Part shown: in pieces, positions 13,350 to 31,825 of the stretch
How positions within the stretch are numbered: position 1 is the stretch's first letter
How the letters are laid out: the number at the start of each line of letters is the position of its first letter
NCBI RefSeq assembly: GCF_965208055.1
Contig: NZ_CBDBNY010000004.1
Coordinates: 320,045-384,044, forward strand
DNA: 64,000 bases
Source: Candidatus Palauibacter sp.
GTDB taxonomy: Bacteria; Gemmatimonadota; Gemmatimonadetes; Palauibacterales; Palauibacteraceae
Direction of reading: 5' to 3'
Notes under the pieces: generated by a model
What the model was told of the DNA's origin: nothing
What the model saw: only the letters and a program-made list of their open reading frames with translations
The model's database searches: none
Program-made: the position numbers and the translations under genes

Positions 13350-13386
13350 CGATCCGCCGCTCCCCGGCCTCCCGCGTCGCCGAGCC

Positions 13387-14727: not shown

Positions 14728-14960
14728 ACGAAAGACCGTTGCGGCGACGGTCTCGACTGGCGCACGGAAGGTGGGCCGGCGGGGCCCGCGCGGGCAACGG
14801 TGAGAGACCGGCGGCGACGGCCGGTGACCGTGGCTGGCGGCGGCGGGAGGTGGAGGCGAGACTTCGACCTGTTGCGTCCTTTCGCCGTCTCGTTCGTCTC
14901 ACGGGATGAGAAGACGAAGTAGAGGACGACAACGAGCCACGAAACCGGGAGAAGCGAACC

Positions 14961-19480: not shown

Positions 19481-19536
19481 CTTCCAACAGTTGCCAGAGG
19501 TCGCAGATCCGTCCAGAGTAGGGCACCCGAGAGGAG

Positions 19537-21186
19537 GTGCCGGATGCCCGAAACGGGCCGCTCGTGAAATACGATCTGCGGGTGCTCCGCGGCGATCTTT
19601 TCGGAGGCGCCACGTCGGCGGTGGTGGCGCTCCCGGTGTCGCTCGCCTTCGGCGTCGCGTCGGGCCTCGGCGCGGTCGCCGGGCTCTACGGCGCGATCGC
19701 CGTCGGCTTCTTCGCGGCCGTCTTCGGCGGCAACCGGTTCCAAATGTCCGGTCCCACCCCTTCAATGACCGTCGCCATGGCGGTCGTAGTGACCACGCAT
19801 GCGTCGACGCTGAGCGAGGCCTTCACCGTGGTGGTGCTGGCGGGGCTGATCCAGATTGCGCTGGGTCTCTTGAAGGCCGGGCGCTTCGTCGTCTACACGC
19901 CGCACGCCGTCATCTCGGGGTTCATGTCCGGGATCGGCGTCATCGTCATGCTCATCCAGACGCTGCCGTTCCTCGGCGCCGCTCCGGCGGAGGGCGGTCC
20001 CATCGGCGCCATGCGGGCGCTGCCGGCGGTCGTGGCCAACATGAACGCGAGCGCGTTGGCCATCGGCGCGGTCACGCTCACGGCCGGCATCTGCTGGCCT
20101 CGGCGGTGGTCACGCCTGCTGCCGGGTCCGCTCGTCGCCCTCATCGTCGGAACGGCGCTTGGCCTGTTTTGGCTGACCGACGTCCCCGTCATCGGCGCCA
20201 TCCCGACCAGCCTGCCGGAGATCCAATTCGGTCTGCCGTCCTTCGGTTTTCTGGCCCAGGCCTTTCATGCGGCGCTCATCCTGGCCCTCCTCGGTTCGGT
20301 CGACAGTCTTCTCACGTCGCTCGTGGCCGACTCGCTGACCGGCACGCAGCACGACTCGAACCGCGAACTCGTCGGCCAGGGCATCGGCAACGTCGTCTCC
20401 GGCCTGTTCGGAGGGTTGCCGGGCGCGGGCGCGACGATGGGGACGGTCGTCAACATCCGCGCCGGCGGTCTCACGCGGATGTCCGGCGCCCTGCGCGCCA
20501 TCTTCCTGCTGGGGGTTCTGCTGGGCCTGGGGCCGTTTCTGGAACCCATTCCGCACGCCGTGCTGGCCGGCATCCTGATCAAGGTCGGGTGGGACATCAT
20601 CGACTGGCCCCTTCTGGTCCGCATCCACCGCCTCCGCCGCGACCAGCTCTTCGTCATGGTGCTGACGCTCGGCCTGACCGTGTTCGTCGACCTCGTGACC
20701 GCGGTCGCGATCGGTCTCATCGTCGCGGGGATGGCTCACGCACGGCAGCTGGAGGGCCTTGAACTCGACAACGTCCTTTCCGTCCCGCTGCTCGACCGCA
20801 CGTTCTTCGCCGGACTCGAGGGCGCGGACGCGATGGGCGAATACTCCGCCAGGGTGGGCCTGGTGCAGCTGCGGGGCGCCTTCACCGTCGCGTCGTCCCA
20901 CAAGCTGGTCGGCGTCATTGGGAAGGACATCAAGGACCACGAGATCGTCATCTTCGACTTCTCCGCCGCCACTTATGTGGATGACAGCGCCGCCATGCTC
21001 ATTCGGCAGCTTTTGGACGTGGGGGAGAGCGAAGACACCGAGGTCATCGTCCTGTCGGTCTCCGGAGCCGTAGACAAGACGCTGCGCGCGCTCGACATCC
21101 TGTCGGGCGTGCCCGAGGAGCATATCGTCGAGACGAGGGATGAGGCTCGCGTGGTGGCGCTGGACCTGCTCAACGCCGGAAACTGA
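19537..21186 (+). CDS. SulP family anion (sulfate/bicarbonate) transporter with a C-terminal STAS domain
   Basis: 549 aa. SulP TM core, then a STAS region (ARVGLVQLRGAFTVASSHKLVGVIG...FDFSAATYVDDSAAMLIRQL). Confidence 0.9.
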   Translation: MPDARNGPLVKYDLRVLRGDLFGGATSAVVALPVSLAFGVASGLGAVAGLYGAIAVGFFAAVFGGNRFQMSGPTPSMTVAMAVVVTTHASTLSEAFTVVVLAGLIQIALGLLKAGRFVVYTPHAVISGFMSGIGVIVMLIQTLPFLGAAPAEGGPIGAMRALPAVVANMNASALAIGAVTLTAGICWPRRWSRLLPGPLVALIVGTALGLFWLTDVPVIGAIPTSLPEIQFGLPSFGFLAQAFHAALILALLGSVDSLLTSLVADSLTGTQHDSNRELVGQGIGNVVSGLFGGLPGAGATMGTVVNIRAGGLTRMSGALRAIFLLGVLLGLGPFLEPIPHAVLAGILIKVGWDIIDWPLLVRIHRLRRDQLFVMVLTLGLTVFVDLVTAVAIGLIVAGMAHARQLEGLELDNVLSVPLLDRTFFAGLEGADAMGEYSARVGLVQLRGAFTVASSHKLVGVIGKDIKDHEIVIFDFSAATYVDDSAAMLIRQLLDVGESEDTEVIVLSVSGAVDKTLRALDILSGVPEEHIVETRDEARVVALDLLNAGN

Positions 21187-21366
21187 GACGGTGGAGAGGT
21201 CGCAACCCTCCTCGGAAGGAGGACTTTGGCATGCGCAGGGTCCCCCGTCGAGGCACGCGGTTCTCTGGCGGTCTCTGGCGCCGCGTGGTTAGCTTCCTCC
21301 CCCCGCCGGGGATCGGTGTTCCCTCACGCGGTAAGCCACGCGATCAATACCGAAGGGGGATCCACG

Positions 21367-23856
21367 GTGCCCAGGAGACCTTGTCCGCCAACGTTCAGTG
21401 CCCCTGTCGCGTTAGCTTGTGGACTGGTCCTTTCGGGTTGTTCGGAGAGGGACCTCGACTCGCTGGGTCCCGCACCTCCTCCCAGCAATGGGGAAGTCTA
21501 CATGGACGGCTTCTCCCCGGGCCTTGAGTACCAGGCCTTCGGCGGCTCCAAGGTCGATGCGCTCGACATCGATGAGACCGGCGGACGCGCCGGAACGCCG
21601 AGCCTGAAGTTCACGATTCCGCTGCCGAACGATCCCGCCGGCAGCTACGCGGGCGGCGTATTCGTCGGCAGGCCGCCCCGCGACCTCTCCGGCTTCACGG
21701 CGCTCACTTTCTGGACCCGGGCGAGGCAGGCGGCCACGCTAAACACCGTGGGCTTCGGAAACGACAACAGCGGCAACTCGAGATTCCCCGCCGAAGCGGG
21801 GGATGTGACCGTGTCGACGACATGGAGCAAGGTCATTCTTCCCATTCCGGACCCCTCGAAACTGAGTAGCGAAGGTGGCCTGTTCTTCCTCGCCGAAGGG
21901 GCGGAGAACAACCAGGGCAACGAGATCTGGTTCGACGAAGTCCAGTTCGAGGATGTGCGTACGATCGCGAATCCGCGTCCCGCCATCGCGACCGCGACGG
22001 TCGCGGGCGAACCCGGGGGCACGGCCCGGGTGATGGGGACGCAGGTCACGTACGACGTGGGCGGATTCGACCGGGTCATGAAGGCGAGTCCGGCCTACTT
22101 CAGCTTCGGTTCCTCGGATCCGGGCGTCGTCACGGTCGACGCCGATGGCCAGATGACGTTCGTCGGGTTGGGCACGGCGACGGTCACCGCCTCCCTCGGT
22201 GGCGCGCAGGCGGACGGTGCGGTCACGGTCACCGTGGCGGCGTCGCCCGACGGCGGACCTCCCGCTCCGACGCGGTCCGCCGAGAACGTGATCTCACTCT
22301 TCAGCGACGCGTACGACGACGTCACCGTGGACACCTGGTCGGCCGAATGGGACCAGGCCGATGCCGAGGACGTCCAGTTCGCGGGCGACAACGTCAAGAA
22401 GTATTCGAATCTCAACTTCGCGGGAATCGAATTCATCTCCGCGCCGATCGATGCCTCGGCGATGAGCCACTTACACTTCGATTTGTGGACCGGCGATGAA
22501 ACGGCTCCGCCGGCAGCTTTCCGGGTGAAGCTCGTAGACTTCGGCCCCAATGGCGCCTTCGGCGGGGACGACGACAGCGAGCACGAAATCGCCCTGACTG
22601 CGGAATCGGGTCTGGCCTCCCGAACGTGGGTGAGTTTCGACGTGCCGCTGACGGACTTCGCGGGCCTCGCGGCCACATCCAGCCTGGCGCAGCTCATCAT
22701 CTCGGGCGACCCGAATACGGTCTATCTTGACAACATCTACTTCTGGGGTGAGGGGATGCCACCTCCGCCGCCTCCTCCCCCACCGGCGCCGATGGAGCCA
22801 TCGGAACCGGCGCCCACGCCGGAGCAGGATGCCGGAGACGTGATCTCGCTGTTCAGCGACGCGTACGAGGATGTGGCCGTAGAGACCTGGTCGGCGGAGT
22901 GGGACCAGGCCGACGTGGAGGACGTCCAGGTTGCGGGCGACAACATGAAGAAATACACCAATCTGGTCTTTGCCGGCGTGACGTTCACGTCGGCGCCGGT
23001 CGATGCCTCGGGAATGACGCACTTCCACGTGGATGCGTGGACGCCCGACCCGACGGCGGAGCCGGCCGCGCTGCGGCTGAAGCTGGTCGACTTCGGTCCG
23101 AACGGGGTCCACGACGGCGGGGGAGACGACAGCGAGCACGAGGTCTCGCTCACGGCGGCCTCGACCCCGGCGCTCGCGACCGGGATGTGGCTGAGCTACG
23201 ACCTTGCGTTCGAGGAACTGTCAGGGCTCGCGGGCAGGACGAGCTTGGCGCAGTTCATCATCTCCGGCGACCCGAACACGTTGTTCGTCGACAACGTCTA
23301 CTTCTACGGGGAGAGCGCACCGGCGCCGACCGAGCCGCCAATAGCCGCGCCGACACCGGCTGCGGCCGCGGCCGACGTGATTTCGCTGTTCAGCGACGCG
23401 TACGAAGACGTGACGGTGGATACCTGGTCTGCGGACTGGGACCAGGGAGACGTCGCGGATGTCGAGATCGACGGGAACGCGGCGAAAATGTACTCCAACG
23501 TCGTTTTCGTCGGCGTGGAGTTCACCTCGGCGACGGTCGACGCCTCGGAAATGACCCACTTTCACATCGACCTCTGGACCGCGGACGAGACCGCCGATCC
23601 GGCGGCGTTCAGGGTGAAGCTCGTTGACTTCGGCGCAAACGGCGTGCACGACGGCGGGGGCGATGACAGCGAGCACGAATTGTCGCTGACGGCGGCCTCG
23701 GATCCGTCCCTCGCTTCCGGAGTCTGGCTCAGCTACGACGTCTCCCTGTCGGACTTCTCCGGTCTCGCGGAGACGGGCCATCTGGCGCAGCTCATCTTTT
23801 CGGGCGATCTCGGCACGTTCTGGATCGATAACGTCTACTTACGACGCGACCAGTGA
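21367..23856 (+). CDS. Surface lipoprotein with a BIG2-like domain and three ~180-aa tandem repeats (putative beta-glucan-binding modules)
   Basis: GTG start with lipobox LVLSGC. BIG2-like stretch (VTYDVGGF...SSDPGVVTVDADGQMTFVGLGTATVTA). Three repeats each contain ISLFSDAYDDV.VDTWSAEWDQADVEDVQ.AGDN.KKY.NL.FAG..F.SAPVDAS.M.H.H.D.WT.D, then FR.KLVDFGPNG....DDSEHE..LTA, then LAQLIISGDPNT...DN.YF.GE. Confidence 0.7.
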   Translation: MPRRPCPPTFSAPVALACGLVLSGCSERDLDSLGPAPPPSNGEVYMDGFSPGLEYQAFGGSKVDALDIDETGGRAGTPSLKFTIPLPNDPAGSYAGGVFVGRPPRDLSGFTALTFWTRARQAATLNTVGFGNDNSGNSRFPAEAGDVTVSTTWSKVILPIPDPSKLSSEGGLFFLAEGAENNQGNEIWFDEVQFEDVRTIANPRPAIATATVAGEPGGTARVMGTQVTYDVGGFDRVMKASPAYFSFGSSDPGVVTVDADGQMTFVGLGTATVTASLGGAQADGAVTVTVAASPDGGPPAPTRSAENVISLFSDAYDDVTVDTWSAEWDQADAEDVQFAGDNVKKYSNLNFAGIEFISAPIDASAMSHLHFDLWTGDETAPPAAFRVKLVDFGPNGAFGGDDDSEHEIALTAESGLASRTWVSFDVPLTDFAGLAATSSLAQLIISGDPNTVYLDNIYFWGEGMPPPPPPPPPAPMEPSEPAPTPEQDAGDVISLFSDAYEDVAVETWSAEWDQADVEDVQVAGDNMKKYTNLVFAGVTFTSAPVDASGMTHFHVDAWTPDPTAEPAALRLKLVDFGPNGVHDGGGDDSEHEVSLTAASTPALATGMWLSYDLAFEELSGLAGRTSLAQFIISGDPNTLFVDNVYFYGESAPAPTEPPIAAPTPAAAAADVISLFSDAYEDVTVDTWSADWDQGDVADVEIDGNAAKMYSNVVFVGVEFTSATVDASEMTHFHIDLWTADETADPAAFRVKLVDFGANGVHDGGGDDSEHELSLTAASDPSLASGVWLSYDVSLSDFSGLAETGHLAQLIFSGDLGTFWIDNVYLRRDQ
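22283..23853 (+). repeat. Three in-frame tandem coding repeats (~540-555 bp period) inside the surface lipoprotein gene
   Basis: Repeat starts near 22283 (gagaacgtgatctcactcttcagcgacgcgtacgacgac), 22838 (gacgtgatctcgctgttcagcgacgcgtacgaggat) and 23374 (gacgtgatttcgctgttcagcgacgcgtacgaagac). Pairwise aa identity is ~55-70%. Confidence 0.8.
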
Positions 23857-23909
23857 ACGGCGGGCACGCGCCGCCGCGGTTCCGACTGATCGTGAAGGTC
23901 TGTTCTCTA

Positions 23910-24707
23910 ATGGGCCCCCTGGCGGCTCTCGTCATCATCGCGGCGGCGTGCGGCGGCGAGGGTGAACCCACGGCCCCGAGTCGGGCGCAGCTGATCTGGG
24001 AGGACGAATTCGATGGGCCGGCCGGCCAGCTGCCGGATCCGTCGCGCTGGACGTTCGACATCGGCACCGACTGGGGGAACCGGCAACTGGAGTTCGACAC
24101 GGACCGTCCCGAGAACGTCTCGCTCGACGGAAACGGGAACCTGGCCATCACGGCGCGCCGCGAGGCGTTCAGCGGCAGCCAGTTCACCTCCGGCCGGATC
24201 AAGACCCAGGGGCTGTTCGAGCAGGCATACGGACGCTTCGAGGCCCGAATCGACCTCCCCTCCGGGCGGGGCATCTGGCCCGCCTTCTGGCTGTTGGGCG
24301 CCGACATCGACGCGGTCGGCTGGCCGGAGTGCGGCGAGATCGACGTCATGGAATTCCGCGGTCAGGAACCGTCCATCGTGCACGGCAGCCTGCACGGGCC
24401 GGGCTACTCGGCCGGCAACGCCGTGACGGCGCGGTACACGCTGAACAACGACCGCTTCGACACGGGTTTTCACACCTTCGCCGTCGAGTGGACTGAAGAC
24501 CGGATCGAGTGGTTCGTGGACGGAGAGCGCTACCAGTCGATCGGGCGTGACGAAGTGCCCGGGCGGTGGGCGTACGATCATCCTTTTTTCGTCATCCTCA
24601 ACGTCGCGGTGGGTGGCGGTTTCGTCGGCCCGCCGGGTGAGAGCACGGCCTTCCCGCAGACGATGCTTGTCGATTGGGTGCGAGTGTACGGTATCGACGA
24701 CTCGTGA
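23910..24707 (+). CDS. Glycoside hydrolase family 16 laminarinase (endo-beta-1,3-glucanase) lipoprotein
   Basis: Lipobox IIAAACGG. GH16 catalytic motif GEIDVME (ExDxxE). Also WEDEFDG and WPAFWLLG. Confidence 0.9.
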   Translation: MGPLAALVIIAAACGGEGEPTAPSRAQLIWEDEFDGPAGQLPDPSRWTFDIGTDWGNRQLEFDTDRPENVSLDGNGNLAITARREAFSGSQFTSGRIKTQGLFEQAYGRFEARIDLPSGRGIWPAFWLLGADIDAVGWPECGEIDVMEFRGQEPSIVHGSLHGPGYSAGNAVTARYTLNNDRFDTGFHTFAVEWTEDRIEWFVDGERYQSIGRDEVPGRWAYDHPFFVILNVAVGGGFVGPPGESTAFPQTMLVDWVRVYGIDDS

Positions 24708-26767
24708 CCCACCGCACGGCCCCTGAAGACCGGATCTCCTTCCCGCACAAGATCGCCTACGGGGTCGGCGGCTTCGTAAACAACCTGCTCGCACAGGGCA
24801 TCGGCGGCATGACCGTCGTACTCACGCTGGCCCTCGGCATGGATTTCCGGCTCGTGGGCCTGCTCGGCATGCTGCCGAGGTTCTTCGATGCGATCACCGA
24901 CCCACTCGTCGGTTTCATCTCCGACCGGTCGCGTTCCCGCTGGGGCCGGCGCCGACCGTTCCTTTTCGTCGGGGCCATCGCCTCGGGGGTCATCTTCGCG
25001 CTCCTGTGGCAGATGCCTGCGCCCACGCAGTTCCGGCTGAAGTTGGTGGACTACGGCGCGGACGGGGTGTACAGCGGCGGCGTCACCGGCGAGCCGGTCA
25101 GCATATTCGAGGCCATCGGGGAGTCGCTGCGCGACATCGTGACCGTTGAAGTCATGGACGATGTCGAGGACGAGGTCACGATCCTTCCCCCGACGCTCGT
25201 CACCGGTGCCTGGGTCGGCATCGACGTGCCGCTCTCCGACTTCGACGAACTCACCACGCGCGAGCACCTGTCCCAGATCCTGATTTCGGGCGACCTCACC
25301 GAAGTGTACGTCGACAACGTGTATCTCTACCGGACGGACGACACGACGAGGATCGCGACGTCGGGGGAGGACCGGGAGGGCTTGGCGGCGCCCGACGCGC
25401 CAGCGCGGCTGCCCGCGGTCCCGGCAGAGGATGTGATTTCGTTCTTCAGCGACGCGTATGACGACGTTGGGGTGGATTTCTGGTCCGCCGACTGGGACGA
25501 GGCCGATGTGGCGGACGCCCGGGCCGCCGGCGACGACGTCAAGCACTACACGAACCTCAGGTTCGCCGGCATCGACTTCGGCGAGCAGCCCGTGGACGCG
25601 AGCGCGATGACGCACGTACACATGGACATCTGGACCCCGGAGACCACGGGCGAGGGCCGGAGCCAGGCGTACTATTTCTGGTACTTCCTGGTCGGCTCGC
25701 TGATCTTCTTCCTCGCCTACACCATCTTCGCCACGCCCTGGGTCGCGCTGGGGTACGAACTTACGCCCGACTTCCACGAGCGCACACGGCTGATGGGCGT
25801 GCAGAACTTCGTCGGCAACGTCGCCTTCGTCATGGCGCCCTGGTTCCTCGTCGTGATGACGAATCCGGCGTGGTTCCGGAACCAGATGGCCGGAGCGAGG
25901 TTCCTGGCGCTCGCCATCTGCGTCACGGTAATCCTGCTCGGAGTGCTGCCGGCGATTTTCCTCCGCGAACGAGTGCCCGGGGCGGCTGGAGACCAGGAGC
26001 AGAGTAGCGGCCGGGAGGCCGTGGGCGAGTTCTTCGGAGGCCTCTGGCAGACGGTCAGGACCGGCCCCTTCCTTCTGCTTTGCATCGCGACTTTCCTGAT
26101 CTTCAACAGCTTCATCATGATTTCGGCGTTCCAGTTCTGGGTGTTCGTGTATTACGTGTCCGGCGGCAACGTCGCGGATGGGGCGTCGCTCGCCGGACTC
26201 GTCGGCACGCTCGGCATCGCAGGCGGATTCGCGGTGATCGCGATCGTGACCTGGCTGGGCACGAAGATCGGTAAGCGGAACGCCTTCTTCGTCTCCACCG
26301 GGATCTCGATGTTCGGCTATGCGCTGAAGTGGTTCTGCTACCACCCCGAGTATCCGATGCTCGCCCTGCTTCCGGCTCCCTTCCTGGCCTTCGGGCTGGG
26401 CGGCTTGTTCACGCTGATGGGATCCATGATCGCGGACGTGGTGGACCTCGATGAACTAAGCACGGGCGAGCGGCGCGAGGGGATGTTCGGATCGGTGTAC
26501 TGGTGGGTCGTAAAGGTGGGGCAGAGCATCGCGCTGGGCGCGGGAGGCTTCCTGCTCGCCTCGACGGGACTCGACATCGACCTCGGCGCCAACCAGGCCG
26601 CGCGGACCATCACCTTGCTACGCGTCTACGACGCTGTCGTCCCTCTCGTCGCATCCGCGATCGCGATCCTCGCGATCTACAAGTACCCGATCACTGAGAC
26701 GACGGCTCTGAAGGTGCGGGCCGAACTGGAGCAGCGGAGAGGTGGCGGCGCGGAAGCCACCGCCTAG
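24704..26767 (+). CDS. GPH-family (MelB-like) glycoside:cation symporter with a ~200-aa in-frame insertion homologous to the neighbouring surface-protein repeat
   Basis: GPH loop 2-3 motif DPLVGFISDRSRSRWGRRRPF and a MelB-like TM core. Residues ~120-325 (nt ~25030-25650) read QFRLKLVDYGADG...LSQILISGDLTEVYVDNVYLY + linker + DVISFFSDAYDDVGVDFWSADWDEADV...DASAMTHVHMDIWTPE. This is a circularly permuted copy of the repeat unit of gene 21367-23856. The insertion falls between TM3 and TM4. Confidence 0.8.
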   Translation: MTHRTAPEDRISFPHKIAYGVGGFVNNLLAQGIGGMTVVLTLALGMDFRLVGLLGMLPRFFDAITDPLVGFISDRSRSRWGRRRPFLFVGAIASGVIFALLWQMPAPTQFRLKLVDYGADGVYSGGVTGEPVSIFEAIGESLRDIVTVEVMDDVEDEVTILPPTLVTGAWVGIDVPLSDFDELTTREHLSQILISGDLTEVYVDNVYLYRTDDTTRIATSGEDREGLAAPDAPARLPAVPAEDVISFFSDAYDDVGVDFWSADWDEADVADARAAGDDVKHYTNLRFAGIDFGEQPVDASAMTHVHMDIWTPETTGEGRSQAYYFWYFLVGSLIFFLAYTIFATPWVALGYELTPDFHERTRLMGVQNFVGNVAFVMAPWFLVVMTNPAWFRNQMAGARFLALAICVTVILLGVLPAIFLRERVPGAAGDQEQSSGREAVGEFFGGLWQTVRTGPFLLLCIATFLIFNSFIMISAFQFWVFVYYVSGGNVADGASLAGLVGTLGIAGGFAVIAIVTWLGTKIGKRNAFFVSTGISMFGYALKWFCYHPEYPMLALLPAPFLAFGLGGLFTLMGSMIADVVDLDELSTGERREGMFGSVYWWVVKVGQSIALGAGGFLLASTGLDIDLGANQAARTITLLRVYDAVVPLVASAIAILAIYKYPITETTALKVRAELEQRRGGGAEATA
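25030..25650 (+). repeat. Fourth, circularly permuted copy of the glycan-binding repeat module, embedded in the transporter gene
   Basis: C-terminal half of a repeat at 25030-25330, N-terminal half at 25430-25650. Both clearly align with the repeats at 22283-23853. Confidence 0.75.
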
Positions 26768-28608
26768 CCCGTTTCTTTTCCCAGCCGTGCACTGAACTCG
26801 AAGTCCGTCCTTAGTCCGTAGCCCACGGGGAACAGCGGCTCGGCGGGCTCTCCCCGGGCGACATCGTTCGCGGGCCAGGCATGTGCGAGCCGGCCCCGAA
26901 AGTCGTGGTCGCCGAACAACACCTGGGCGACGCCGGCCCCCTCGGAGCCCGGCAGCCATGCGGCCACGAACGCGTCCGCCGCCTCCAGTTCCTCCGTGAC
27001 GACCAGCGGCCGCCCGGAGACCAGCACGGCCACGACCGGGAGATCTCGCGCTCTCAGCGAACGAATGGTGGCGAGATCCTCGGGGTGCAGCCGCGACAGC
27101 CGCAGGGTGTCGCCGTAGGGGCGGAGAAGGCCGGGCCCCGGTGCGGGGGCCTGGGCCTCGTCCACGCTCGGAGTCTCCGGAGGGCTTCCAGTCCAGTCTC
27201 GGATGTCGCCCATGCCCTCGGCGTAAGGCTTCTCCCCAATCACGACGATGGCCGCTTCAAGATGTCCGTCGTCCTCCGCCCCATCGCTCTCGCCGAACAG
27301 GTGCGCGCGCGGTGCGATCTGCCTGATGCCCTCCCACACGGATGCGCCCCCCTCGATCCGGTCGTTCCCCCGTACGCCCTGCCATTCGACTGTGAAGCCC
27401 CCACACAGCGCCCCCCGGTCATGCGCGATGCGCCCCGCGACGAGTATCCGCGCGTCACGGTCGAGCGGAAGGACATTCCCTTCATTCTTCAGCAACACCA
27501 GCGACTTTCGTACGGCCTCCCTCGCCACGTTGCGGTGGTCCGCTGACCCGAAGCTGGCGTGGTTCGACCACTTGCGGGCGGCTGGACGCGGCTGGTCGAA
27601 GAGCCCGCAGGCCTCCTTCACGGCGAGGATCCGCCCCACCGCATCATCGATGCGCGCTTCCTCGACGTTTCCGGCCTTCACCTGTCTCACGACTTCCGAG
27701 ATGAAGCGCTGCCATTGCGCCGGAACCATGAAGAGGTCGATCCCCGCGTTGACCGACCTCGCGACGGCCTCGCCAAAATCGTCCGAGATGGCGAAGATGC
27801 CGTTCCAGTCCGACACGACGAGCCCGGAGAAGCCCAGCTCGCCCTTGAGCACCTCCGTGATGAGATACCGGTGCTCATGACAGAGAGTCCCGTTCCAGCT
27901 GCTGAGCGAGACCATGACCGCGAGTGCGCCGACCTCCAGCGCCGGACCATATGGAGACACGTGCGTTCTCCGCAGCTCCGCCTCCTCCGCCAGGGTCTCC
28001 CCCTGATCCACGCCGTCCATCGTGCCGCCGTCGCCGACCCAGTGCTTCGGACAAGCGAGGACTCCGCCGGCGCCGAGACCTGCCTGCAGACCCCGTACGA
28101 TCCGGGGAGCGTATTCGGCGACCAGATCCGGTACTTCGGCGAAGCTCTCGTAGGTTCGGCCCCAGCGGCAGTCACCGGCGACGGCCAGCGTGGGCGCCAG
28201 GTTCCAGTCCAGCCCGGTCGCCAGTACCTCGCGGGCGGTCACGCGGGCGACGCGTTCCACGAGTGCCGGGTCGTGGGCCGCGCCGAGCCCGATATTGTGT
28301 GGGAAGACGGTGGCGCCGAGCACATTGTTGTGCCCGTGGATGGCGTCTACCGCGTACAGGAGGGGGATCCCGGGCTGCCCGTCCGAGCCTTCCGCGGAGG
28401 CCGCCCAGTAGGCGTCGTTCATCGCCACCCAGTCGGCCGGGCGGTTCCGGCCGGGGAACGAGCCGCCTCCGCTGAGCACCGAACCCACGCCGAAGTCCCG
28501 CACCTGTTCCGGCGTGATGTGCAGCCTCTCGGCCTGCACCATCTGCGCCGCCTTGCGGTGGAGGCTCAGCCGGGAGAGCAGGCCCGCCATCCTGGGTGAT
28601 GGCTTCAT
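26764..28608 (-). CDS. Glycoside hydrolase family 3 beta-glucosidase (BglX-like)
   Basis: GH3 motifs GFSGLVVSDW (nucleophile Asp region), KHWVGDGG, and a C-terminal alpha/beta sandwich domain. Stop overlaps the transporter stop region (convergent genes). Confidence 0.9.
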   Translation of the reverse strand: MKPSPRMAGLLSRLSLHRKAAQMVQAERLHITPEQVRDFGVGSVLSGGGSFPGRNRPADWVAMNDAYWAASAEGSDGQPGIPLLYAVDAIHGHNNVLGATVFPHNIGLGAAHDPALVERVARVTAREVLATGLDWNLAPTLAVAGDCRWGRTYESFAEVPDLVAEYAPRIVRGLQAGLGAGGVLACPKHWVGDGGTMDGVDQGETLAEEAELRRTHVSPYGPALEVGALAVMVSLSSWNGTLCHEHRYLITEVLKGELGFSGLVVSDWNGIFAISDDFGEAVARSVNAGIDLFMVPAQWQRFISEVVRQVKAGNVEEARIDDAVGRILAVKEACGLFDQPRPAARKWSNHASFGSADHRNVAREAVRKSLVLLKNEGNVLPLDRDARILVAGRIAHDRGALCGGFTVEWQGVRGNDRIEGGASVWEGIRQIAPRAHLFGESDGAEDDGHLEAAIVVIGEKPYAEGMGDIRDWTGSPPETPSVDEAQAPAPGPGLLRPYGDTLRLSRLHPEDLATIRSLRARDLPVVAVLVSGRPLVVTEELEAADAFVAAWLPGSEGAGVAQVLFGDHDFRGRLAHAWPANDVARGEPAEPLFPVGYGLRTDFEFSARLGKETG

Positions 28609-28633: not shown

Positions 28634-31600
28634 TCACATCGCGATGTGGACGTACGTCCGGAGCTCCCACTCGCTCCCGCTGTCGCCGGAGCGCCCCGGC
28701 TCGCACATCGCGAAACCGTTGGCGTCGATGGTCGGGGCGGGGCAGTACCGCGGCGAGTTCATGTCCAGCGAACGCCATGTGGCGCGAACCCCGAACCGCG
28801 TGCCCGGCATATCGAACCACCCCGGCCGACCCAGCGAGTACGACAGATCGCCCATCAACTGGAACGGGAAGGTGTGGTTGAAGTCGCGGTGGTAGTCGTA
28901 CGGTCCCCAGTCGTTCACCCGGGCGAAGGTCTCCAGCTTGAGAGGTCCGCGGATCACGCGCAGATCCACGCCGTGCCGGCGGATCAGGCGCGGGCTGTCG
29001 CCATTGGGTTCGCCGGTGCCCGTATAGACGTTCGCGATGAACCCGGAGCCGCCCGAACTCTTCGAGACGAGGCGGGCCTTCAACTCCCACACGTCGCGCG
29101 CCGGCGGAGCGCCGGGGAAGGCGAAGATGGACCGTCCGTCGGCCAGGATCCCGATCCCGGCGTCCTGCGTGGTCCCGAAACTCTTGTAGGTGAACCCGAT
29201 GGTTGTCGCGAACGAAGCGTCCTCGCGAATGTCGCTGTCCCACGAATGCATCCAGGTCGCGGGCGTGGGGTCGTACGTGAGGAGGAACTCCATCGCCTTC
29301 GTTTCCCGGCTCCAGCCGCGGACGGCGAACGGGTCGTCGACGACGTTGCGCGGACGCGCGGGCGCGGGCGCGCCGGCCGGAATCGGGCCCACGACCGGCT
29401 TCTGCCAGAGGAAATTGGGTGCGATCTGCCAGTTGCCCGCATTCAGCGCCACGCCGGTGAGAACGTTGTACTGGTTCCCCATCCCGCTGTCGCGGAGCCA
29501 CCAGCCGGTGAAGGTCTGCGTTGCGGTGGGGCCACCTTCGGCAACCAGGCCCATGGCCGCACCCTGCACGTACCAGTTCCACCGGCCCTTGGTGAGGGTG
29601 AGCTTCGCCTTGGCGCCGAACGCGTCCTTCGCCTCGATCCGGTCCCCGAGCACCTCGTAGCTGCCGGGCTCGCCGCGCACGATCTGGAACTCTTCACCCT
29701 CCTTGGTGGAGCCGGACCAGATACCGCCCACCTCGAACACCGCGTCGCCGCGCGTGGCGGCCAGGTGCACGGTGGCTTTGCGCGTCGGCGGCAGCGGGAC
29801 CGCGAACGAACTTGCCACGGCCCCCTGTTCCGCGAGGTCTTCCTGGTAGACGAACGTAGTCTGGAACGGCCCCACGCTCTTCGTCAGCTTGCCGAGTACG
29901 GTGGGATTCGCGCCCCACCACAGCTCCGGCCCGAAGGCCACGGAGAGGCCGTTGAACAGCCGCTTGCCGTCGATCTCCACCCCAAGCGGCGCCATGCCAT
30001 TATAGATGTCGATATTCGGGCCATAGTTGGCTTCGCGGTACAGTCCGAAGAAATCGCCCTCGTACCCCCAGTGATAATGTCCGGTACGATAGAAGCCGTT
30101 CAGACGGAACCATGAATCGTCCCACGAGATGTTGGCCTGGTAGATCTTCAAACGCTCGAGGTCGCCGAGGACGAACTGCTCGCCGTCGGCCTCCACTCGG
30201 CGCGGACGGCCACGGTTCTCGTAGAAGATCTCGTCGACCGGATTGTTGGGGACCGCGCCGAGGACGTTGACGATGACTTCGCCCTCGATGCCCCCCGCCG
30301 GCCTCGCCTTGATACCGCCGTAAAATGATTGCATCTGATCGAAGCCGCGGAACGACGGCCGCCCGCGCGAGACGGTCGGCGCGTCCTCCGGCGTACTGAT
30401 GACCGTCCCGCCCGTGCTGAATGTCTCGAACTCGGCCCGCAGGGTGCTCACCTGGAAGCGATCGAGGATCGAGGAGGTGAACGCCGCGCGGTCACCTCGC
30501 GCCTGCAGTTCGGCCGTTTCGGGCATGATCGCGGAGAAATGCCGTGCGATCGTCTCCATCGTCGTCCCCGGACCGTAGGGGTCGAGTTCGTACGCGTCGC
30601 GGAGGGCATAGAACGCGGCGCGGGGGAACAGTTCGTAGAGGCCCTGGTTGTCGGTCGGCCCCTTGGCGACGATGCCCCACCATTCCTCGTTCATGTTGTT
30701 CCGGCCGGGCACGTAGTCGTCCGGATACGCGCTGTTGGCCCAGGAGGCGTTGATGTCCTGAACGTCGAGGTTGTCCTCCTGCCCGAACTTCCACCAGCCG
30801 TCCGTCCACTGGAAGGTCATCCCGCCGATGGAATTGCCCACGCCTCCCTTGCCCGCGGATTCCGCGTAGATCTCCTGCCACTGGTCGAGGAGATAACGGG
30901 TCTGCATGAGCTGGTCCTCGCGCATCGTGCGCGCGTTCCAGACGTCGGCCCCGAACTCGGTGAACAGCACGGCCATCCCGAGCTTCTCGTCCACCTCCTC
31001 GAAGAAGTCGTTGAAGGACCGGCCGCGGTACACGTTGGAGCCGAGCACGTCGAGGTTACCCGCCTCTTCGGCGATGAGGTCGATGTACTGCAGGTCCCCG
31101 TTCGCGTAGGCGACTGGGCGCGTGGGGTCCATCTCCTTGATGAGTTCCGTCGCGTCCCCGACCAGCGAATACAGGTAGCGGGCGCGGCCGGTGTCGCGCT
31201 CGCCCTCGGGCATGTCCTCGGTCTCCGCCGAACTCCAGAAGAGACCGTAGTTGTTCTCGTTGCCGAGCAGCCACATGAGCACACCCGGCGTGTCCTTGAA
31301 TTCTCGCACCATGTCCTCGACCTCGGCGAGGACGACCGCGCGCGACTCGGGGTCCGCGTAGTTGGTGTTCGCGTCGAACACCCCGTTCACGGTGACACCG
31401 TAGCGGCCGAGGGCGTGGTTGAGAACCGTGTAGATCCCGTAGTTCTTCCAGATGTACTCGACCCACTGCGGCGTGATCCCGACGTAGGCCCGGATCGCAT
31501 TCACGCCCATGGCCCGGGCGAGGCCCATCTCCCGGTCGAGCGCCGCCTTGATCAGGTCGTCGGACTCGGTCCAGAAGTTGTAGTTGTAGGTCGTTCCGCG

Positions 31601-31825
31601 CGGAAAGTAGTCCCAGTTAATGCCGAGGACCATGAAGTCGTCGCCGTCCACCTGCAGCCTGATCCCGCTATCGTCCGCGATCAGTTCGATCTCGGGAAGG
31701 GGCGGATCGCCGGATTGCTGCGCGGCGAGGCCGGGGGTGCCCCCAAGGCAAATGAGAACCGCGACCGAGACAACGCTGAGGCGGAACCGGCGCGGCCGGA
31801 GTTGCGTGGAAATGACGCTTGGCAT
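28634..31825 (-). CDS. Secreted ~1060-aa protein with an N-terminal clan GH-A (GH5-like) TIM-barrel hydrolase and a ~650-aa C-terminal domain of unknown function
   Basis: ATG at 31825 followed by signal peptide MPSVISTQLRPRRFRLSVVSVAVLICLGGTPGLAAQ. Putative acid/base LLGNENNYG and nucleophile AVLFTEFGADVW. C-terminal two-thirds are rich in Gly/aromatic beta-strand segments with no motif I recognise. The 1213-aa ORF in the track over-extends the N-terminus. Confidence 0.6.
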   Translation of the reverse strand: MPSVISTQLRPRRFRLSVVSVAVLICLGGTPGLAAQQSGDPPLPEIELIADDSGIRLQVDGDDFMVLGINWDYFPRGTTYNYNFWTESDDLIKAALDREMGLARAMGVNAIRAYVGITPQWVEYIWKNYGIYTVLNHALGRYGVTVNGVFDANTNYADPESRAVVLAEVEDMVREFKDTPGVLMWLLGNENNYGLFWSSAETEDMPEGERDTGRARYLYSLVGDATELIKEMDPTRPVAYANGDLQYIDLIAEEAGNLDVLGSNVYRGRSFNDFFEEVDEKLGMAVLFTEFGADVWNARTMREDQLMQTRYLLDQWQEIYAESAGKGGVGNSIGGMTFQWTDGWWKFGQEDNLDVQDINASWANSAYPDDYVPGRNNMNEEWWGIVAKGPTDNQGLYELFPRAAFYALRDAYELDPYGPGTTMETIARHFSAIMPETAELQARGDRAAFTSSILDRFQVSTLRAEFETFSTGGTVISTPEDAPTVSRGRPSFRGFDQMQSFYGGIKARPAGGIEGEVIVNVLGAVPNNPVDEIFYENRGRPRRVEADGEQFVLGDLERLKIYQANISWDDSWFRLNGFYRTGHYHWGYEGDFFGLYREANYGPNIDIYNGMAPLGVEIDGKRLFNGLSVAFGPELWWGANPTVLGKLTKSVGPFQTTFVYQEDLAEQGAVASSFAVPLPPTRKATVHLAATRGDAVFEVGGIWSGSTKEGEEFQIVRGEPGSYEVLGDRIEAKDAFGAKAKLTLTKGRWNWYVQGAAMGLVAEGGPTATQTFTGWWLRDSGMGNQYNVLTGVALNAGNWQIAPNFLWQKPVVGPIPAGAPAPARPRNVVDDPFAVRGWSRETKAMEFLLTYDPTPATWMHSWDSDIREDASFATTIGFTYKSFGTTQDAGIGILADGRSIFAFPGAPPARDVWELKARLVSKSSGGSGFIANVYTGTGEPNGDSPRLIRRHGVDLRVIRGPLKLETFARVNDWGPYDYHRDFNHTFPFQLMGDLSYSLGRPGWFDMPGTRFGVRATWRSLDMNSPRYCPAPTIDANGFAMCEPGRSGDSGSEWELRTYVHIAM

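What the first reader, a model, noticed from the sequence alone, without database searches (positions are those of the whole stretch)
24704..26767. GPH sugar symporter carrying an in-frame, circularly permuted copy of the neighbouring glycan-binding repeat in a periplasmic loop
The transporter ORF is ~690 aa, whereas GPH/MelB-type symporters are ~450-500 aa. The extra ~200 aa (nt ~25030-25650) sit between TM3 and TM4. Unlike the transporter core, they align convincingly with the tandem repeat unit of the surface lipoprotein two genes upstream. The order is C-terminal half of a repeat (FR.KLVD.G..G...LSQILISGD...YVDNVYLY), a linker, then the N-terminal half of the next repeat (DVISFFSDAYDDVGVDFWSADWDEADV...DASAMTHVHMDIWTPE). 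In MelB topology the 3-4 loop is periplasmic. This would put a carbohydrate-binding-like module on the periplasmic face of an inner-membrane symporter, a fusion I have not seen described. It could act as a substrate-capture funnel for laminarin oligosaccharides released by the adjacent GH16. Alternatively it could be a recombination or assembly artefact between repeat copies.
Basis: seen in the sequence. Interest (0 to 1): 0.8.

Follow-up and report, generated by a model that had tools for sequence, protein, structure and literature searches.

The report
Sugar symporter with built-in periplasmic glycan-binding-like domain
An inner-membrane sugar symporter of marine Gemmatimonadota really does carry, in a periplasmic loop, a rearranged copy of the carbohydrate-binding-like repeat from a neighbouring lipoprotein gene. 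The insert is old, conserved and under selection. An unrelated domain sits at the same loop of the same transporter in other phyla, which points to an undescribed way of coupling glycan capture to uptake.

Summary

**The insert.** The ORF 24704-26767 encodes a 687-aa GPH/MelB-type symporter. Its Pfam MFS_2 match is split by a 212-aa insert (aa 106-317, nt 25019-25654) between TM3 and TM4. The insert matches the repeat of the upstream lipoprotein in circularly permuted order (BLASTP E 5e-41; HMM E 9e-57).

**Not an artefact.**
- DNA identity to the repeats is only 69-77%.
- All 120 best database homologues and 35 loci from a species-representative genome set, all Gemmatimonadota (named ones Palauibacter or 'Longimicrobiales'), carry the insert at the same junction.
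- Insert dN/dS is 0.14-0.46.

**Origin.** Insertless orthologues (57-65% identical) join P105 to G318 through one residue. They often already sit next to repeat-protein genes, so the donor was probably the locus itself.

**Fold.** The repeat folds (pLDDT 96) as a beta-sandwich closest to CBM8, CBM11, CBM30 and the laminarin-binding CBM X584. It belongs to no existing family by sequence.

**New here.** Orthologous transporters in Marinimicrobia, Cloacimonadota and Planctomycetota carry an unrelated 160-414-aa insert at the same loop, also in beta-glucan loci.

**Function.** The most likely role is a tethered periplasmic oligosaccharide-capture module. This is inferred, not shown. I found no description of this architecture in the literature library.

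The parts
21367..23856 (+). Probable lipoprotein and likely donor gene type, resembling a surface glycan-binding protein: signal peptide with lipobox LSGC, an N-terminal region with no family match, a Big-like Ig domain, and three tandem repeats of a carbohydrate-binding-module-like domain.
   Evidence: Translation; Pfam Big-like only; the repeat HMM gives three full hits of ~234 bits each.
22276..22764 (+). Repeat 1 of the carbohydrate-binding-module-like domain.
   Evidence: Its N-half is the closest match to the transporter insert (59% aa, 77% nt).
22828..23316 (+). Repeat 2 of the carbohydrate-binding-module-like domain. This is the unit whose structure was modelled.
23365..23853 (+). [quoted passage not shown]
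23853..24707 (+). GH16 beta-glucanase, a probable lipoprotein. Its stop codon overlaps the transporter start codon (GTGA).
   Evidence: Pfam Glyco_hydro_16 E 5e-27; NCBIfam beta-glucanase families, all below their cut-offs; junction sequence.
24704..26767 (+). Whole GPH/MelB-type symporter ORF with the insert (687 aa plus stop).
24704..25018 (+). Transporter core, TM1-TM3 (aa 1-105). It includes the TM2 motif D62-x3-D66-P and the cytoplasmic motif RWGRRRP.
   Evidence: MFS_2 first stretch, profile 1-93; helices 13-36, 48-75 and 84-101 in the model; alignment to MFSD2A.
25019..25333 (+). Insert part 1 (aa 106-210): the C-terminal half of the repeat (FRLKLVDYG...SGDLTEVYVDNVYLY).
   Evidence: BLASTP; HMM profile positions 70-156; strands 110-116, 154-160, 171-176, 189-196 and 200-209.
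25064..25156 (+). Extra segment inside insert part 1 (aa 121-151) that the free repeats lack. It is predicted with low confidence and is less conserved than the rest of the insert.
   Evidence: 25-aa gap on the repeat side in BLASTP; pLDDT below 50 for aa 124-153; mean conservation 0.60 against 0.78 for the flanking halves.
25334..25426 (+). Linker (aa 211-241) that joins the original C-terminus of the domain to its original N-terminus. It corresponds to the Pro-rich spacer between repeats.
   Evidence: conservation 0.60; pLDDT 68-90.
25427..25654 (+). Insert part 2 (aa 242-317): the N-terminal half of the repeat (DVISFFSDAYDDV...MTHVHMDIWTPE).
   Evidence: BLASTP 59% identity to repeat 1; HMM profile positions 2-76; strands 244-248, 268-274, 277-283, 287-291 and 304-310.
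25655..26764 (+). Transporter core, TM4-TM12 and the C-terminal helix (aa 318-687).
   Evidence: MFS_2 profile 94-427; helices from 321 onward; insertless orthologues resume exactly at G318.
26764..28608 (-). GH3 beta-glucosidase-type enzyme with no signal peptide, so probably cytoplasmic. It converges on the transporter and the two stop codons overlap.
   Evidence: Pfam GH3 N- and C-terminal domains; N-terminus; the same neighbour occurs in L001 and L081.
28634..31825 (-). Signal-peptide protein with a weak GH2_C-like TIM-barrel match, conserved in the locus. Its true start is about 150 codons inside the listed ORF.
   Evidence: Pfam; signal peptide and 51% identity to the 427-aa protein next to the Marinimicrobia transporter; 77% identity to the L001 neighbour.

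Best explanation
SHOWN. This is a genuine, vertically inherited domain insertion. In an ancestor of one marine Gemmatimonadota clade (the named members are Ca. Palauibacter or 'Longimicrobiales'), a segment one repeat long was copied into the short periplasmic TM3-TM4 loop of the locus's GPH-type symporter. The segment was taken out of register from a tandem-repeat gene for a carbohydrate-binding-module-like lipoprotein. Because it ran from the C-half of one repeat, through the spacer, into the N-half of the next, the inserted domain is a circular permutant (permutation by duplication). Its new termini lie where two consecutive beta-strands of the sandwich were joined by a loop, so they can connect to TM3 and TM4. 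The former inter-repeat spacer now joins the old termini.

INFERRED. The donor was most likely the repeat gene about 2 kb upstream in the same operon-like cluster. The transporter imports beta-glucan oligosaccharides that the extracytoplasmic GH16 produces, and the signal-peptide-less GH3 cleaves them in the cytoplasm. The periplasmic beta-sandwich keeps a sugar-binding cleft. It acts as a tethered capture module that raises the local oligosaccharide concentration at the outward-facing vestibule next to TM4. This would be functionally analogous to substrate-binding domains fused to ABC importers.
For: Anatomy:
- Split MFS_2 match.
- Permuted match to the repeat, E 5e-41 and 9e-57.
- The same strands occur in permuted order in two independent AlphaFold2 models.
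- Acidic insert with no hydrophobic segment; positive-inside rule.

Real and old:
- 69-77% DNA identity to the repeats, which are themselves 71% identical to each other.
- All 120 best homologues carry the insert at aa ~101-320.
- 35 of 80 genome loci carry it at the identical junction 'WQMP|APTQFR...TGE|G[RW]S'. Insertless orthologues read 'WQLPxG[RK]S'.
- The insert-bearing cores form one clade, nested among insertless Gemmatimonadota (NJ tree).

Selection:
- Insert dN/dS is 0.14-0.46; core dN/dS is 0.07-0.27.
- Nearly all residues conserved across the repeat family are kept in 118 inserts.

Donor in the locus:
- Repeat-domain genes lie within 10 kb in 34 of 35 insert-bearing loci and in 20 of 44 insertless loci, typically ~2.1 kb away.

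Glycan link:
- Repeat homologues occur in proteins named GH16 and in T9SS proteins of Bacteroidota, and in a Marinimicrobia GH17/GH30/GH3 locus.
- The upstream lipoprotein has the same build as the Cf-SGBP laminarin-binding protein (bioRxiv 10.1101/2023.09.07.556657).

Adaptive value of a domain at this site:
- An unrelated insert family occupies the same loop of the orthologous transporter in other phyla. It is single or tandem, sits in beta-glucan loci, and in one locus resembles a domain of a neighbouring gene.
Against: - No binding or transport data exist for any member of the repeat family or for this transporter.
- The repeat matches no CBM family by sequence. Pfam, NCBIfam and PDB searches were negative, apart from sporadic weak CBM_11 hits in a few relatives.
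- The most relaxed stretch in the inserts is the 'VDTW..W' loop. The Trp that is invariant in free repeats is W in only 81 of 118 inserts, P in 18 and R in 9. If that loop lines the binding site, binding may be altered or lost in part of the clade.
- I could not obtain model coordinates, so the orientation of any cleft relative to the transporter vestibule is unknown.
- The compartment of the lipoprotein and the GH16 (cell surface or periplasm) is unknown.
- No outer-membrane importer lies in the locus. The nearest TonB-dependent receptor is ~13 kb away.
- The tree is a simple NJ tree without support values.
Confidence: 0.55

Rival explanations
1. Docking module. The periplasmic sandwich binds protein rather than sugar. 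It holds the GH16 and/or the repeat lipoprotein, or a second transporter copy, against the symporter, so that hydrolysis and uptake are physically coupled across the envelope.
For: - The insert is a homologue of the partner's own repeat, and the three genes are always adjacent.
- The loop carrying the family's invariant Trp is relaxed in the inserts, as expected if sugar binding mattered less.
- Insert-specific fixed residues exist, such as Q109, R111, R286 and G293.
- Some genomes carry two insert-bearing paralogues (L002/L009 and L005/L031).
Against: - No evidence that these domains self-associate.
- Most family-conserved polar and aromatic residues (H304, H306, D308, W310, K113, D116, W170) are kept. 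That fits a retained ligand site better than a new interface.
- The second insert family has a different sequence but the same position and the same locus type. That argues for a role tied to the shared substrate rather than to one specific partner.
Confidence: 0.15
2. Sensor or gate. Sugar binding to the periplasmic domain controls the transporter allosterically, or plugs it, rather than feeding it substrate.
For: - The domain is wired directly into TM3 and TM4. TM4 belongs to the helix bundle that forms the sugar and cation site in MelB-type carriers (established knowledge of MelB).
- Fused domains on bacterial transporters are commonly regulatory (PMC10710835).
Against: - The regulatory fusions described for MFS proteins are cytoplasmic and mostly C-terminal.
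- Nothing in the sequence points to gating.
- The type-2 inserts occur singly or in tandem. That suits avidity or capture better than a precise allosteric switch.
Confidence: 0.12
3. Tolerated passenger. The insert folds but has no ligand or partner function and persists because removing it cleanly is difficult.
For: - The insert evolves faster than the core (dN/dS about twice as high; conservation 0.75 against 0.84).
- The extra segment and the linker are poorly conserved.
Against: - dN/dS is well below 1 in all 12 pairs.
- Family-invariant surface-type residues are retained across the 36-member insert clade.
- No secondary loss appears within the insert-bearing clade.
- A different domain has arisen at the same loop.
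Confidence: 0.07
4. Assembly chimera, recent recombination artefact or pseudogene.
For: Repeat-containing regions are prone to misassembly, and the insert is related to a gene 2 kb away.
Against: - DNA identity to any repeat is at most 77%.
- The ORF is intact.
- An identical protein is on record on 5 contigs, the longest 4.03 Mb.
- The same architecture occurs in 35 loci of a species-representative genome set, several on records titled 'chromosome: 1'.
- Purifying selection acts on the insert.
Confidence: 0.01

Closest known systems
MelB / GPH family symporters (TC 2.A.2; Pfam MFS_2), including the eukaryotic relative MFSD2A
   Same: - 12-helix MFS core.
- Pfam MFS_2 at 206 bits.
- Foldseek TM-score 0.73-0.87 (normalised by target) to MelB and MFSD2A.
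- The core without the insert hits MelB and MFSD2A sequences at E 1e-13 to 1e-20, with the TM2 D-x3-D-P motif kept.
- Cytoplasmic RxGRR-type motif in loop 2-3.
   Different: - All solved relatives are ~450-475 aa in the matched chains and have no extracytoplasmic domain.
- Here a 212-aa beta-sandwich replaces a one-residue TM3-TM4 loop.
- The NCBIfam 'gph' score falls below its cut-off (157.8 against 231.35).
Type-B beta-sandwich carbohydrate-binding modules: CBM8 (7t7z), CBM11 (1v0a), CBM30 (2c24), CBM29 and CBM22
   Different: - Sequence identity is 6-14%.
- The window's repeats and the insert hit no CBM model and no PDB sequence.
- The transporter copy is circularly permuted and is embedded in a membrane protein.
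Laminarin-binding CBM 'X584' (CBMxx) and the Cf-SGBP lipoprotein of Christiangramia forsetii (PDB 8qx6; bioRxiv 10.1101/2023.09.07.556657)
   Same: - The upstream gene has the same build: a lipoprotein with Ig-like module(s) followed by tandem beta-sandwich repeats, in a beta-glucan locus with a GH16.
   Different: - 15% identity, and no sequence-level match to the PDB entry at E up to 10, so it is not a member by sequence.
- The paper sections I read mention no copy of the module inside a transporter.
Extracellular Ig-like domains of mammalian PepT1/PepT2 (SLC15), inserted between TM9 and TM10
   Same: An MFS transporter with a beta-sandwich domain inserted into an extracytoplasmic loop (PMC4597091).
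   Different: A eukaryotic peptide transporter, a different loop and a different fold class (immunoglobulin-like), with no link to glycans. It did not arise from a neighbouring gene's repeat and is not permuted.
ABC importers with fused substrate-binding domains (for example GlnPQ, OpuA) and SBP-dependent secondary transporters (TRAP, TTT)
   Same: The proposed working principle: a binding module tethered to the translocator captures substrate and hands it over. Tandem copies occur, as in the type-2 inserts. This comparison rests on my own knowledge.
   Different: The binding modules there are periplasmic-binding-protein folds, and the translocators are ABC or TRAP type. No homology and no evidence here that the module is required for transport.
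C-terminal domain fusions of bacterial MFS transporters (LacS-IIA, CBS, UspA, cNMP-binding)
   Same: An extra soluble domain added to an MFS or GPH carrier (PMC10710835).
   Different: Those fusions are cytoplasmic, terminal and regulatory. This one is periplasmic, internal and CBM-like.
Natural circular permutation by duplication, for example the permuted GH16 lichenase of Fibrobacter succinogenes or the swaposins
   Same: A permuted jelly-roll or beta-sandwich that keeps its fold. It arises from a tandem duplicate read out of register. This comparison rests on my own knowledge.
   Different: Here the permutant was produced by copying a window of an existing tandem array into a different gene, and the permutation site became the attachment point to two membrane helices.

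Membership tests
GPH / Pfam MFS_2 (PF13347) | Match to the family profile above the curated threshold | tested here: met
   MFS_2 E 1.1e-60, 205.9 bits against a cut-off of 27, in two stretches split at profile position 93/94.
GPH / NCBIfam TIGR00792 'gph' | Score at or above the NCBIfam cut-off (231.35 bits) | tested here: not met
   157.8 bits, E 3.5e-46, in two stretches. The shortfall fits the split by the insert and the divergence of the core. It is a subfamily-domain model.
GPH / MelB-type symporters | 12-helix MFS fold superposable on MelB | tested here: met
   AlphaFold2 model at pLDDT 81 with 3 + 9 long helices. Foldseek to MelB 7l16 and 8t60 and to MFSD2A 8d2t: probability 1.00, TM-score (by target) 0.73-0.87.
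GPH / MelB-type symporters | Acidic cation-site motif D-x3-D-P in TM2 | tested here: met
   FFD62AITD66PLVG aligns with RAWDAVTDPTVG of MFSD2A. D62 and D66 are invariant in 55 homologues.
GPH / MelB-type symporters | Cation-coupled glycoside transport | not testable with these tools
   Requires uptake assays. The substrate is inferred only from the GH16, GH3, GH17 and GH30 neighbours.
CBM11 (PF03425) | Match to the family profile above threshold | tested here: not met
   No hit for the window's repeats or the insert even at E up to 10. Only 1 of 56 family members hits at E 6e-5. A separate distant relative, P0341, reaches 35.3 bits.
CBM11 and other type-B CBMs | Beta-jelly-roll sandwich fold | tested here: met
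CBM11 and other type-B CBMs | Binding of a glycan chain in a cleft on the concave sheet | not testable with these tools
   No coordinates or binding assay were available. Conserved H-x-H-x-D-x-W and K/D residues on the two strands flanking the permutation site are compatible with such a cleft but do not prove it.
Laminarin-binding CBM X584 / CBMxx (8qx6) | Sequence similarity to the founding members | tested here: not met
Laminarin-binding CBM X584 / CBMxx (8qx6) | Tandem repeats after Ig-like module(s) in a lipoprotein of a beta-glucan locus | tested here: met
   Met for the upstream gene 21367-23856: lipobox, Big-like domain, three repeats, GH16 next door. Compare Cf-SGBP.
Circular permutant of the locus repeat | Collinear match of C-half, spacer, then N-half to the tandem array, significant for both halves | tested here: met
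   One BLASTP HSP spans a repeat boundary, E 5e-41. HMM domains follow the order 70-96, 93-156, 2-76.
Circular permutant of the locus repeat | The same fold is retained after permutation | tested here: met
   Prediction only. Strands 110-116/154-160/171-176/189-196/200-209 and then 244-248/268-274/277-283/287-291/304-310 of the full model correspond to strands 82-88...152-160 and then 5-9...65-71 of the repeat model. The two halves of the insert have pLDDT 73-94.
Transporters that depend on a tethered binding domain | Transport requires, or is enhanced by, the binding module | not testable with these tools
   A functional analogy only. It needs a comparison of deletion and wild-type uptake.

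The most novel reading that the evidence does not exclude
Inner-membrane GPH symporters of beta-glucan utilisation loci have recruited extracytoplasmic glycan-binding-like beta-sandwich modules into the same TM3-TM4 loop at least twice independently. One event was a permuted copy of the locus's repeat, in marine Gemmatimonadota. The other was an unrelated single or tandem domain, in Marinimicrobia, Cloacimonadota and Planctomycetota, also related to a domain in a neighbouring gene. Together these would define a previously unrecognised class of 'binding-module-assisted' secondary transporters. They would be the MFS counterpart of ABC importers with fused binding domains, and they would matter for how marine bacteria scavenge laminarin-derived oligosaccharides at low concentration.
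Probability: 0.35. Interest if true: 0.85.

Novelty: new variant of a known kind. Interest (0 to 1): 0.72.

Why it matters
Laminarin and related beta-glucans are a large flux in the marine carbon cycle. How oligosaccharides get from outer hydrolysis to the cytoplasm is known mainly for Bacteroidota SusC/D systems.

A secondary (MFS) transporter with its own periplasmic carbohydrate-binding-like module would be a new solution to capture and hand-over at the inner membrane. It occurs in poorly studied phyla: Gemmatimonadota, Marinimicrobia, Cloacimonadota and Planctomycetota.

It is also a clean natural example of protein evolution. A window of a tandem repeat array was copied out of register into a neighbouring gene. 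That produced a circular permutant whose new termini fit a membrane-protein loop.

The case is directly testable by domain binding assays, insert-deletion uptake assays and a cryo-EM structure. It also exposes an annotation gap. These proteins are labelled only 'MFS transporter', and neither insert domain has a Pfam or CAZy family.

Tried and rejected
**Searches that found nothing**
- Sequence searches for the repeat in Pfam, NCBIfam and PDB, as single sequence and as a 56-sequence profile, found nothing usable.
- A PDB profile search and a Pfam scan of the type-2 insert gave only weak hints: CBM_11 E 0.033, CIA30, Agarase_CBM.
- hhalign of the type-2 inserts against the repeat family gave probability 0.3%. 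BLAST clustering kept the two families apart. I therefore rejected the idea that the two insert types are diverged versions of one event.
- The type-2 HMM finds nothing in the window.

- Foldseek against AFDB50, intended to find annotated relatives with the same two-domain build, was not available.
- Model coordinates are not returned, so the position of the cleft relative to the transporter could not be measured.

**Literature**
- Ten full-text searches found no description of an MFS or GPH carrier with a periplasmic CBM-like insert.
- The Palauibacterales genome paper does not mention laminarin, GH16 or MFS.

**Ideas rejected**
- Misassembly or recent recombination.
- A hidden TM helix in the insert.
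- The 690-aa ORF at 12850-14922 as a second such gene. It is an Arg-rich ORF with no Pfam match that overlaps the opposite-strand M20 peptidase ORF 13387-14727, so it is probably spurious.
- A TonB-dependent importer as part of the locus. The only one in the window is ~13 kb away.

Full report
**What is in the window.**
The region holds a compact beta-glucan cluster.
- 21367-23856 (+): a probable lipoprotein (lipobox LSGC) with an N-terminal region that matches no family, a Big-like Ig domain and three ~160-aa tandem repeats.
- 23853-24707 (+): a GH16 beta-glucanase.
- 24704-26767 (+): the transporter. Its GTG start overlaps the GH16 stop codon as GTGA.
- 26764-28608 (-): a convergent GH3 with no signal peptide.
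- 28634-31825 (-): a signal-peptide protein with a weak GH2_C-like TIM-barrel match.

The window protein is identical to a database entry named 'MFS transporter [Candidatus Palauibacter sp.]', seen on a 4.03-Mb contig. Ca. Palauibacter belongs to Gemmatimonadota, order Ca. Palauibacterales.

**Checking the observation.**
The ORF is uninterrupted and encodes 687 aa. Pfam MFS_2 matches at 206 bits but in two pieces, profile 1-93 and profile 94-427, and the second piece covers aa 318-665.

The intervening residues align to the lipoprotein across a repeat boundary. One BLASTP HSP covers aa 101-317 against lipoprotein residues 420-612 (E 5e-41, 40% identity). The N-half of a repeat alone is 59% identical. 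An HMM built from 56 free repeats hits the transporter in the order profile 70-96, 93-156 and then 2-76 (E 9e-57). It finds no other copy in the 64 kb. The circular permutation is therefore real and far beyond chance.

Hydropathy finds no membrane segment between aa 105 and 324. The insert is strongly acidic (45 D/E against 12 K/R), whereas the 2-3 loop has 7 K/R including RWGRRRP. With the invariant N-in topology of MFS proteins, the insert lies in the periplasm.

**Not an artefact.**
- The insert is only 69-77% identical in DNA to any repeat. That is the same level as the repeats among themselves, 71%.
- All 120 best hits in the 5.8-billion-protein collection are 553-759 aa long. Every one carries the insert; the full-length ones have it at aa ~101-320. 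Insert identity runs from 100% down to 42%.
- In the species-representative genome set, 34 of the 79 loci returned (L002-L034 and L043) have the insert. Several lie on records titled 'chromosome: 1'. Locus L001, found through P0119, makes 35.
- All 35 show the junction 'LLWQMP|APTQFRLKLVD ... WTPExTGE|G[RW]SQxYYFW'.
- The 44 insertless orthologues (57-65% identical in the C-terminal core) read 'LLWQLPxG[RK]SExFYFW'. This fixes the insert at aa 106-317, replacing a single residue.
- dN/dS for 12 pairs is 0.14-0.46 in the insert and 0.07-0.27 in the core.

**Origin.**
A neighbour-joining tree of the cores, with inserts removed, puts all 36 insert-bearing sequences in one clade. That clade is nested among insertless Gemmatimonadota (L055, L041, L056, L036, L060, L075).

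Genes with the repeat domain lie within 10 kb of the transporter in 34 of 35 insert-bearing loci. The exception has only 1.4 kb of flank. They also lie within 10 kb in 20 of 44 insertless loci, usually ~2.1-2.3 kb away. The arrangement repeat-protein, GH16, transporter therefore predates the insertion.

The simplest history is a single event. A stretch one repeat long was copied out of register from the tandem array in the same cluster into the 3-4 loop. The former Pro-rich inter-repeat spacer survives as the 31-aa linker (aa 211-241). A ~30-aa segment (aa 121-151) is absent from free repeats and is poorly predicted and less conserved.

**What the domain is.**
The repeat has no Pfam, NCBIfam or PDB sequence relative. 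With an alignment of 56 units, AlphaFold2 gives a confident beta-sandwich (pLDDT 96.3, pTM 0.90).

- CBM29 and CBM22
- an agarase module

Identities are 15% or lower. The X584 module was described as four tandem copies after Ig-like modules in the lipoprotein Cf-SGBP of a laminarin locus (bioRxiv 10.1101/2023.09.07.556657). The upstream gene here has the same build.

The repeat family is large: 2090 representatives at E up to 1e-3, mostly long multi-repeat proteins. It occurs in Gemmatimonadota, in Bacteroidota T9SS proteins and in proteins named GH16. It also occurs in a Marinimicrobia GH3/GH30/GH17 locus. 'Glycan-binding' is thus a well-founded inference, but the domain belongs to no existing family.

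**The insert keeps the fold and most conserved residues.**
The full-length model (pLDDT 81, pTM 0.78) shows the same strands as the repeat model, in permuted order. Across 118 transporters, nearly all family-conserved positions are retained: V244, I245, S246, Y252, K280, Y282, M302, T303, D308, W310, K113, L114, V115, D116, G118, D153, E155, W170, F180, D204 and N205.

The clearest relaxation is the 'VDTW..W' loop. The Trp that is invariant in free repeats is W in 81 transporters, P in 18 and R in 9.

The two strands that now connect to TM3 and TM4 carry conserved residues. FRLKLVD has R111 and D116 invariant among the inserts and K113 nearly so. MTHxHxDxW has H304 invariant, with H306, D308 and W310 nearly so. 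My inference is that these strands form part of the functional face and sit just above the vestibule. I could not test this because model coordinates are not returned.

**The core.**
With the insert removed, the core matches MFSD2A and MelB sequences (E 1e-13 to 1e-20), and the TM2 motif D62-x3-D66-P is conserved. Foldseek gives TM-scores of 0.73-0.87 (normalised by target) to MelB and MFSD2A. None of the solved relatives has an extracytoplasmic domain.

**A second, independent insertion (new here).**
Locus L053 holds an orthologous transporter with a different ~180-aa insert at the same loop. Searching with it returned 120 proteins. The 116 for which both core halves could be located all carry an insert at that site. 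It is 160-212 aa in 100 of them and 351-414 aa in 16, the longer ones being two tandem copies. The source names that exist are Marinimicrobia, Cloacimonadota (Syntrophosphaera) and Planctomycetota.

These inserts form one family with no detectable similarity to the Gemmatimonadota insert or its repeat: no BLAST link and hhalign probability 0.3%. Only faint CBM_11, CIA30 and Agarase_CBM hints appear. Their cores form a separate, distant clade.

Their loci are again beta-glucan loci. L081 has GH3, a homologue of the window's TIM-barrel protein (51% identity), the transporter, GH30, GH17, and a T9SS protein with three copies of the window's repeat family. In L083 the divergent neighbour gene carries a domain homologous to the insert (E 2e-28).

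The same loop of the same transporter family therefore acquired a locus-related beta-rich domain at least twice. This argues that a periplasmic module at this position is advantageous.

**Mechanism.**
- Shown: the architecture, the permutation, the single origin within one clade, purifying selection, the CBM-like fold of the parent repeat, the beta-glucan context and the recurrence.
- Inferred: the GH16 makes oligosaccharides outside the cytoplasm, the symporter imports them, and the GH3, which lacks a signal peptide, cleaves them inside. The tethered sandwich binds these oligosaccharides and concentrates them at the entrance, analogous to binding domains fused to ABC importers. I put about 0.45-0.55 on this function.
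- Rivals: a docking module for the GH16 or the lipoprotein, a sensor or gate, and a tolerated passenger.

**Comparison with what is known, and novelty.**
Known extra domains on bacterial MFS carriers are mostly C-terminal and cytoplasmic (PMC10710835). The nearest structural precedent is the Ig-like extracellular domain between TM9 and TM10 of mammalian PepT1/2 (PMC4597091). Ten full-text searches found no report of an MFS or GPH carrier with a periplasmic CBM-like insert. The library is incomplete, so this is absence of evidence only.

I rate it a new variant of known kinds: a GPH symporter plus a CBM-like module, joined in an undescribed way and by an unusually clear evolutionary route.

Noticed in passing
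L053 2519-4483; proteins P0390-P0509; loci L081, L082, L083: An orthologous GPH transporter family carries an unrelated insert at the same TM3-TM4 loop. It is 160-212 aa as a single copy or 351-414 aa as a tandem pair. Source names are Marinimicrobia, Cloacimonadota and Planctomycetota. It sits in GH3/GH30/GH17 loci and has only faint CBM_11-like hints.
   Followed up: partly
L083 7781-9742 (-): The divergent neighbour of a transporter with a double type-2 insert ends in a domain homologous to that insert (aa 484-659, E 2e-28). In that lineage too, the transporter's insert resembles a domain encoded next door.
   Followed up: partly
L081 18953-21382 (inside gene 18332-21685): A Marinimicrobia T9SS-tail protein in the laminarin-type locus contains three copies of the same repeat family as the window's lipoprotein (26-29% identity, E down to 3e-12). 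This ties the uncharacterised repeat family to beta-glucan loci across phyla.
   Followed up: partly
window 28634-31825 (-): A signal-peptide protein with only a weak GH2_C TIM-barrel match is conserved in the locus. It is 77% identical to its L001 counterpart, and its aa 160-583 are 51% identical to a 427-aa protein with no precomputed Pfam hit beside the Marinimicrobia transporter. It is a candidate unclassified glycosidase. The listed ORF (to 32275) over-extends the start by ~150 codons.
   Followed up: partly
window 25064-25156 (aa 121-151 of the transporter): A ~30-aa segment inside the insert has no counterpart in the free repeats. It is predicted as a low-confidence amphipathic helix and is moderately conserved (0.60). 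Its role is unknown.
   Followed up: no
window 25478-25495 (aa 259-264, FWSADW): The double-Trp loop is the least conserved part of the insert relative to the repeat family. The Trp that is invariant in free repeats is replaced by Pro or Arg in 27 of 118 transporters. Ligand specificity may therefore differ between subclades.
   Followed up: partly
window 21500-22200 (lipoprotein aa ~75-290): The N-terminal ~200 aa of the lipoprotein, before the Big-like domain, match no family. The sequence looks like another beta-rich module (…GNEIWFDEVQFED).
   Followed up: no
L002 / L009 and L005 / L031: Two MAGs each carry two insert-bearing paralogues of the transporter on different contigs, so the fused gene has itself been duplicated in some genomes.
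   Followed up: no
window 12850-14922 (+): A 690-aa ORF of the same length class as the transporter is Arg-rich, has no Pfam match and overlaps the opposite-strand M20 peptidase ORF at 13387-14727. It is probably a spurious ORF of the kind common in high-GC DNA.
   Followed up: yes
window 24704-24707 and 26764-26767: The GH16 stop and the transporter start overlap (GTGA), which suggests translational coupling. The transporter and the convergent GH3 share overlapping stop codons.
   Followed up: yes
L080 10016-12773: A Woeseiaceae (Gammaproteobacteria) locus has two insertless GPH genes in tandem. The second is only ~24-34% identical to the query.
   Followed up: no
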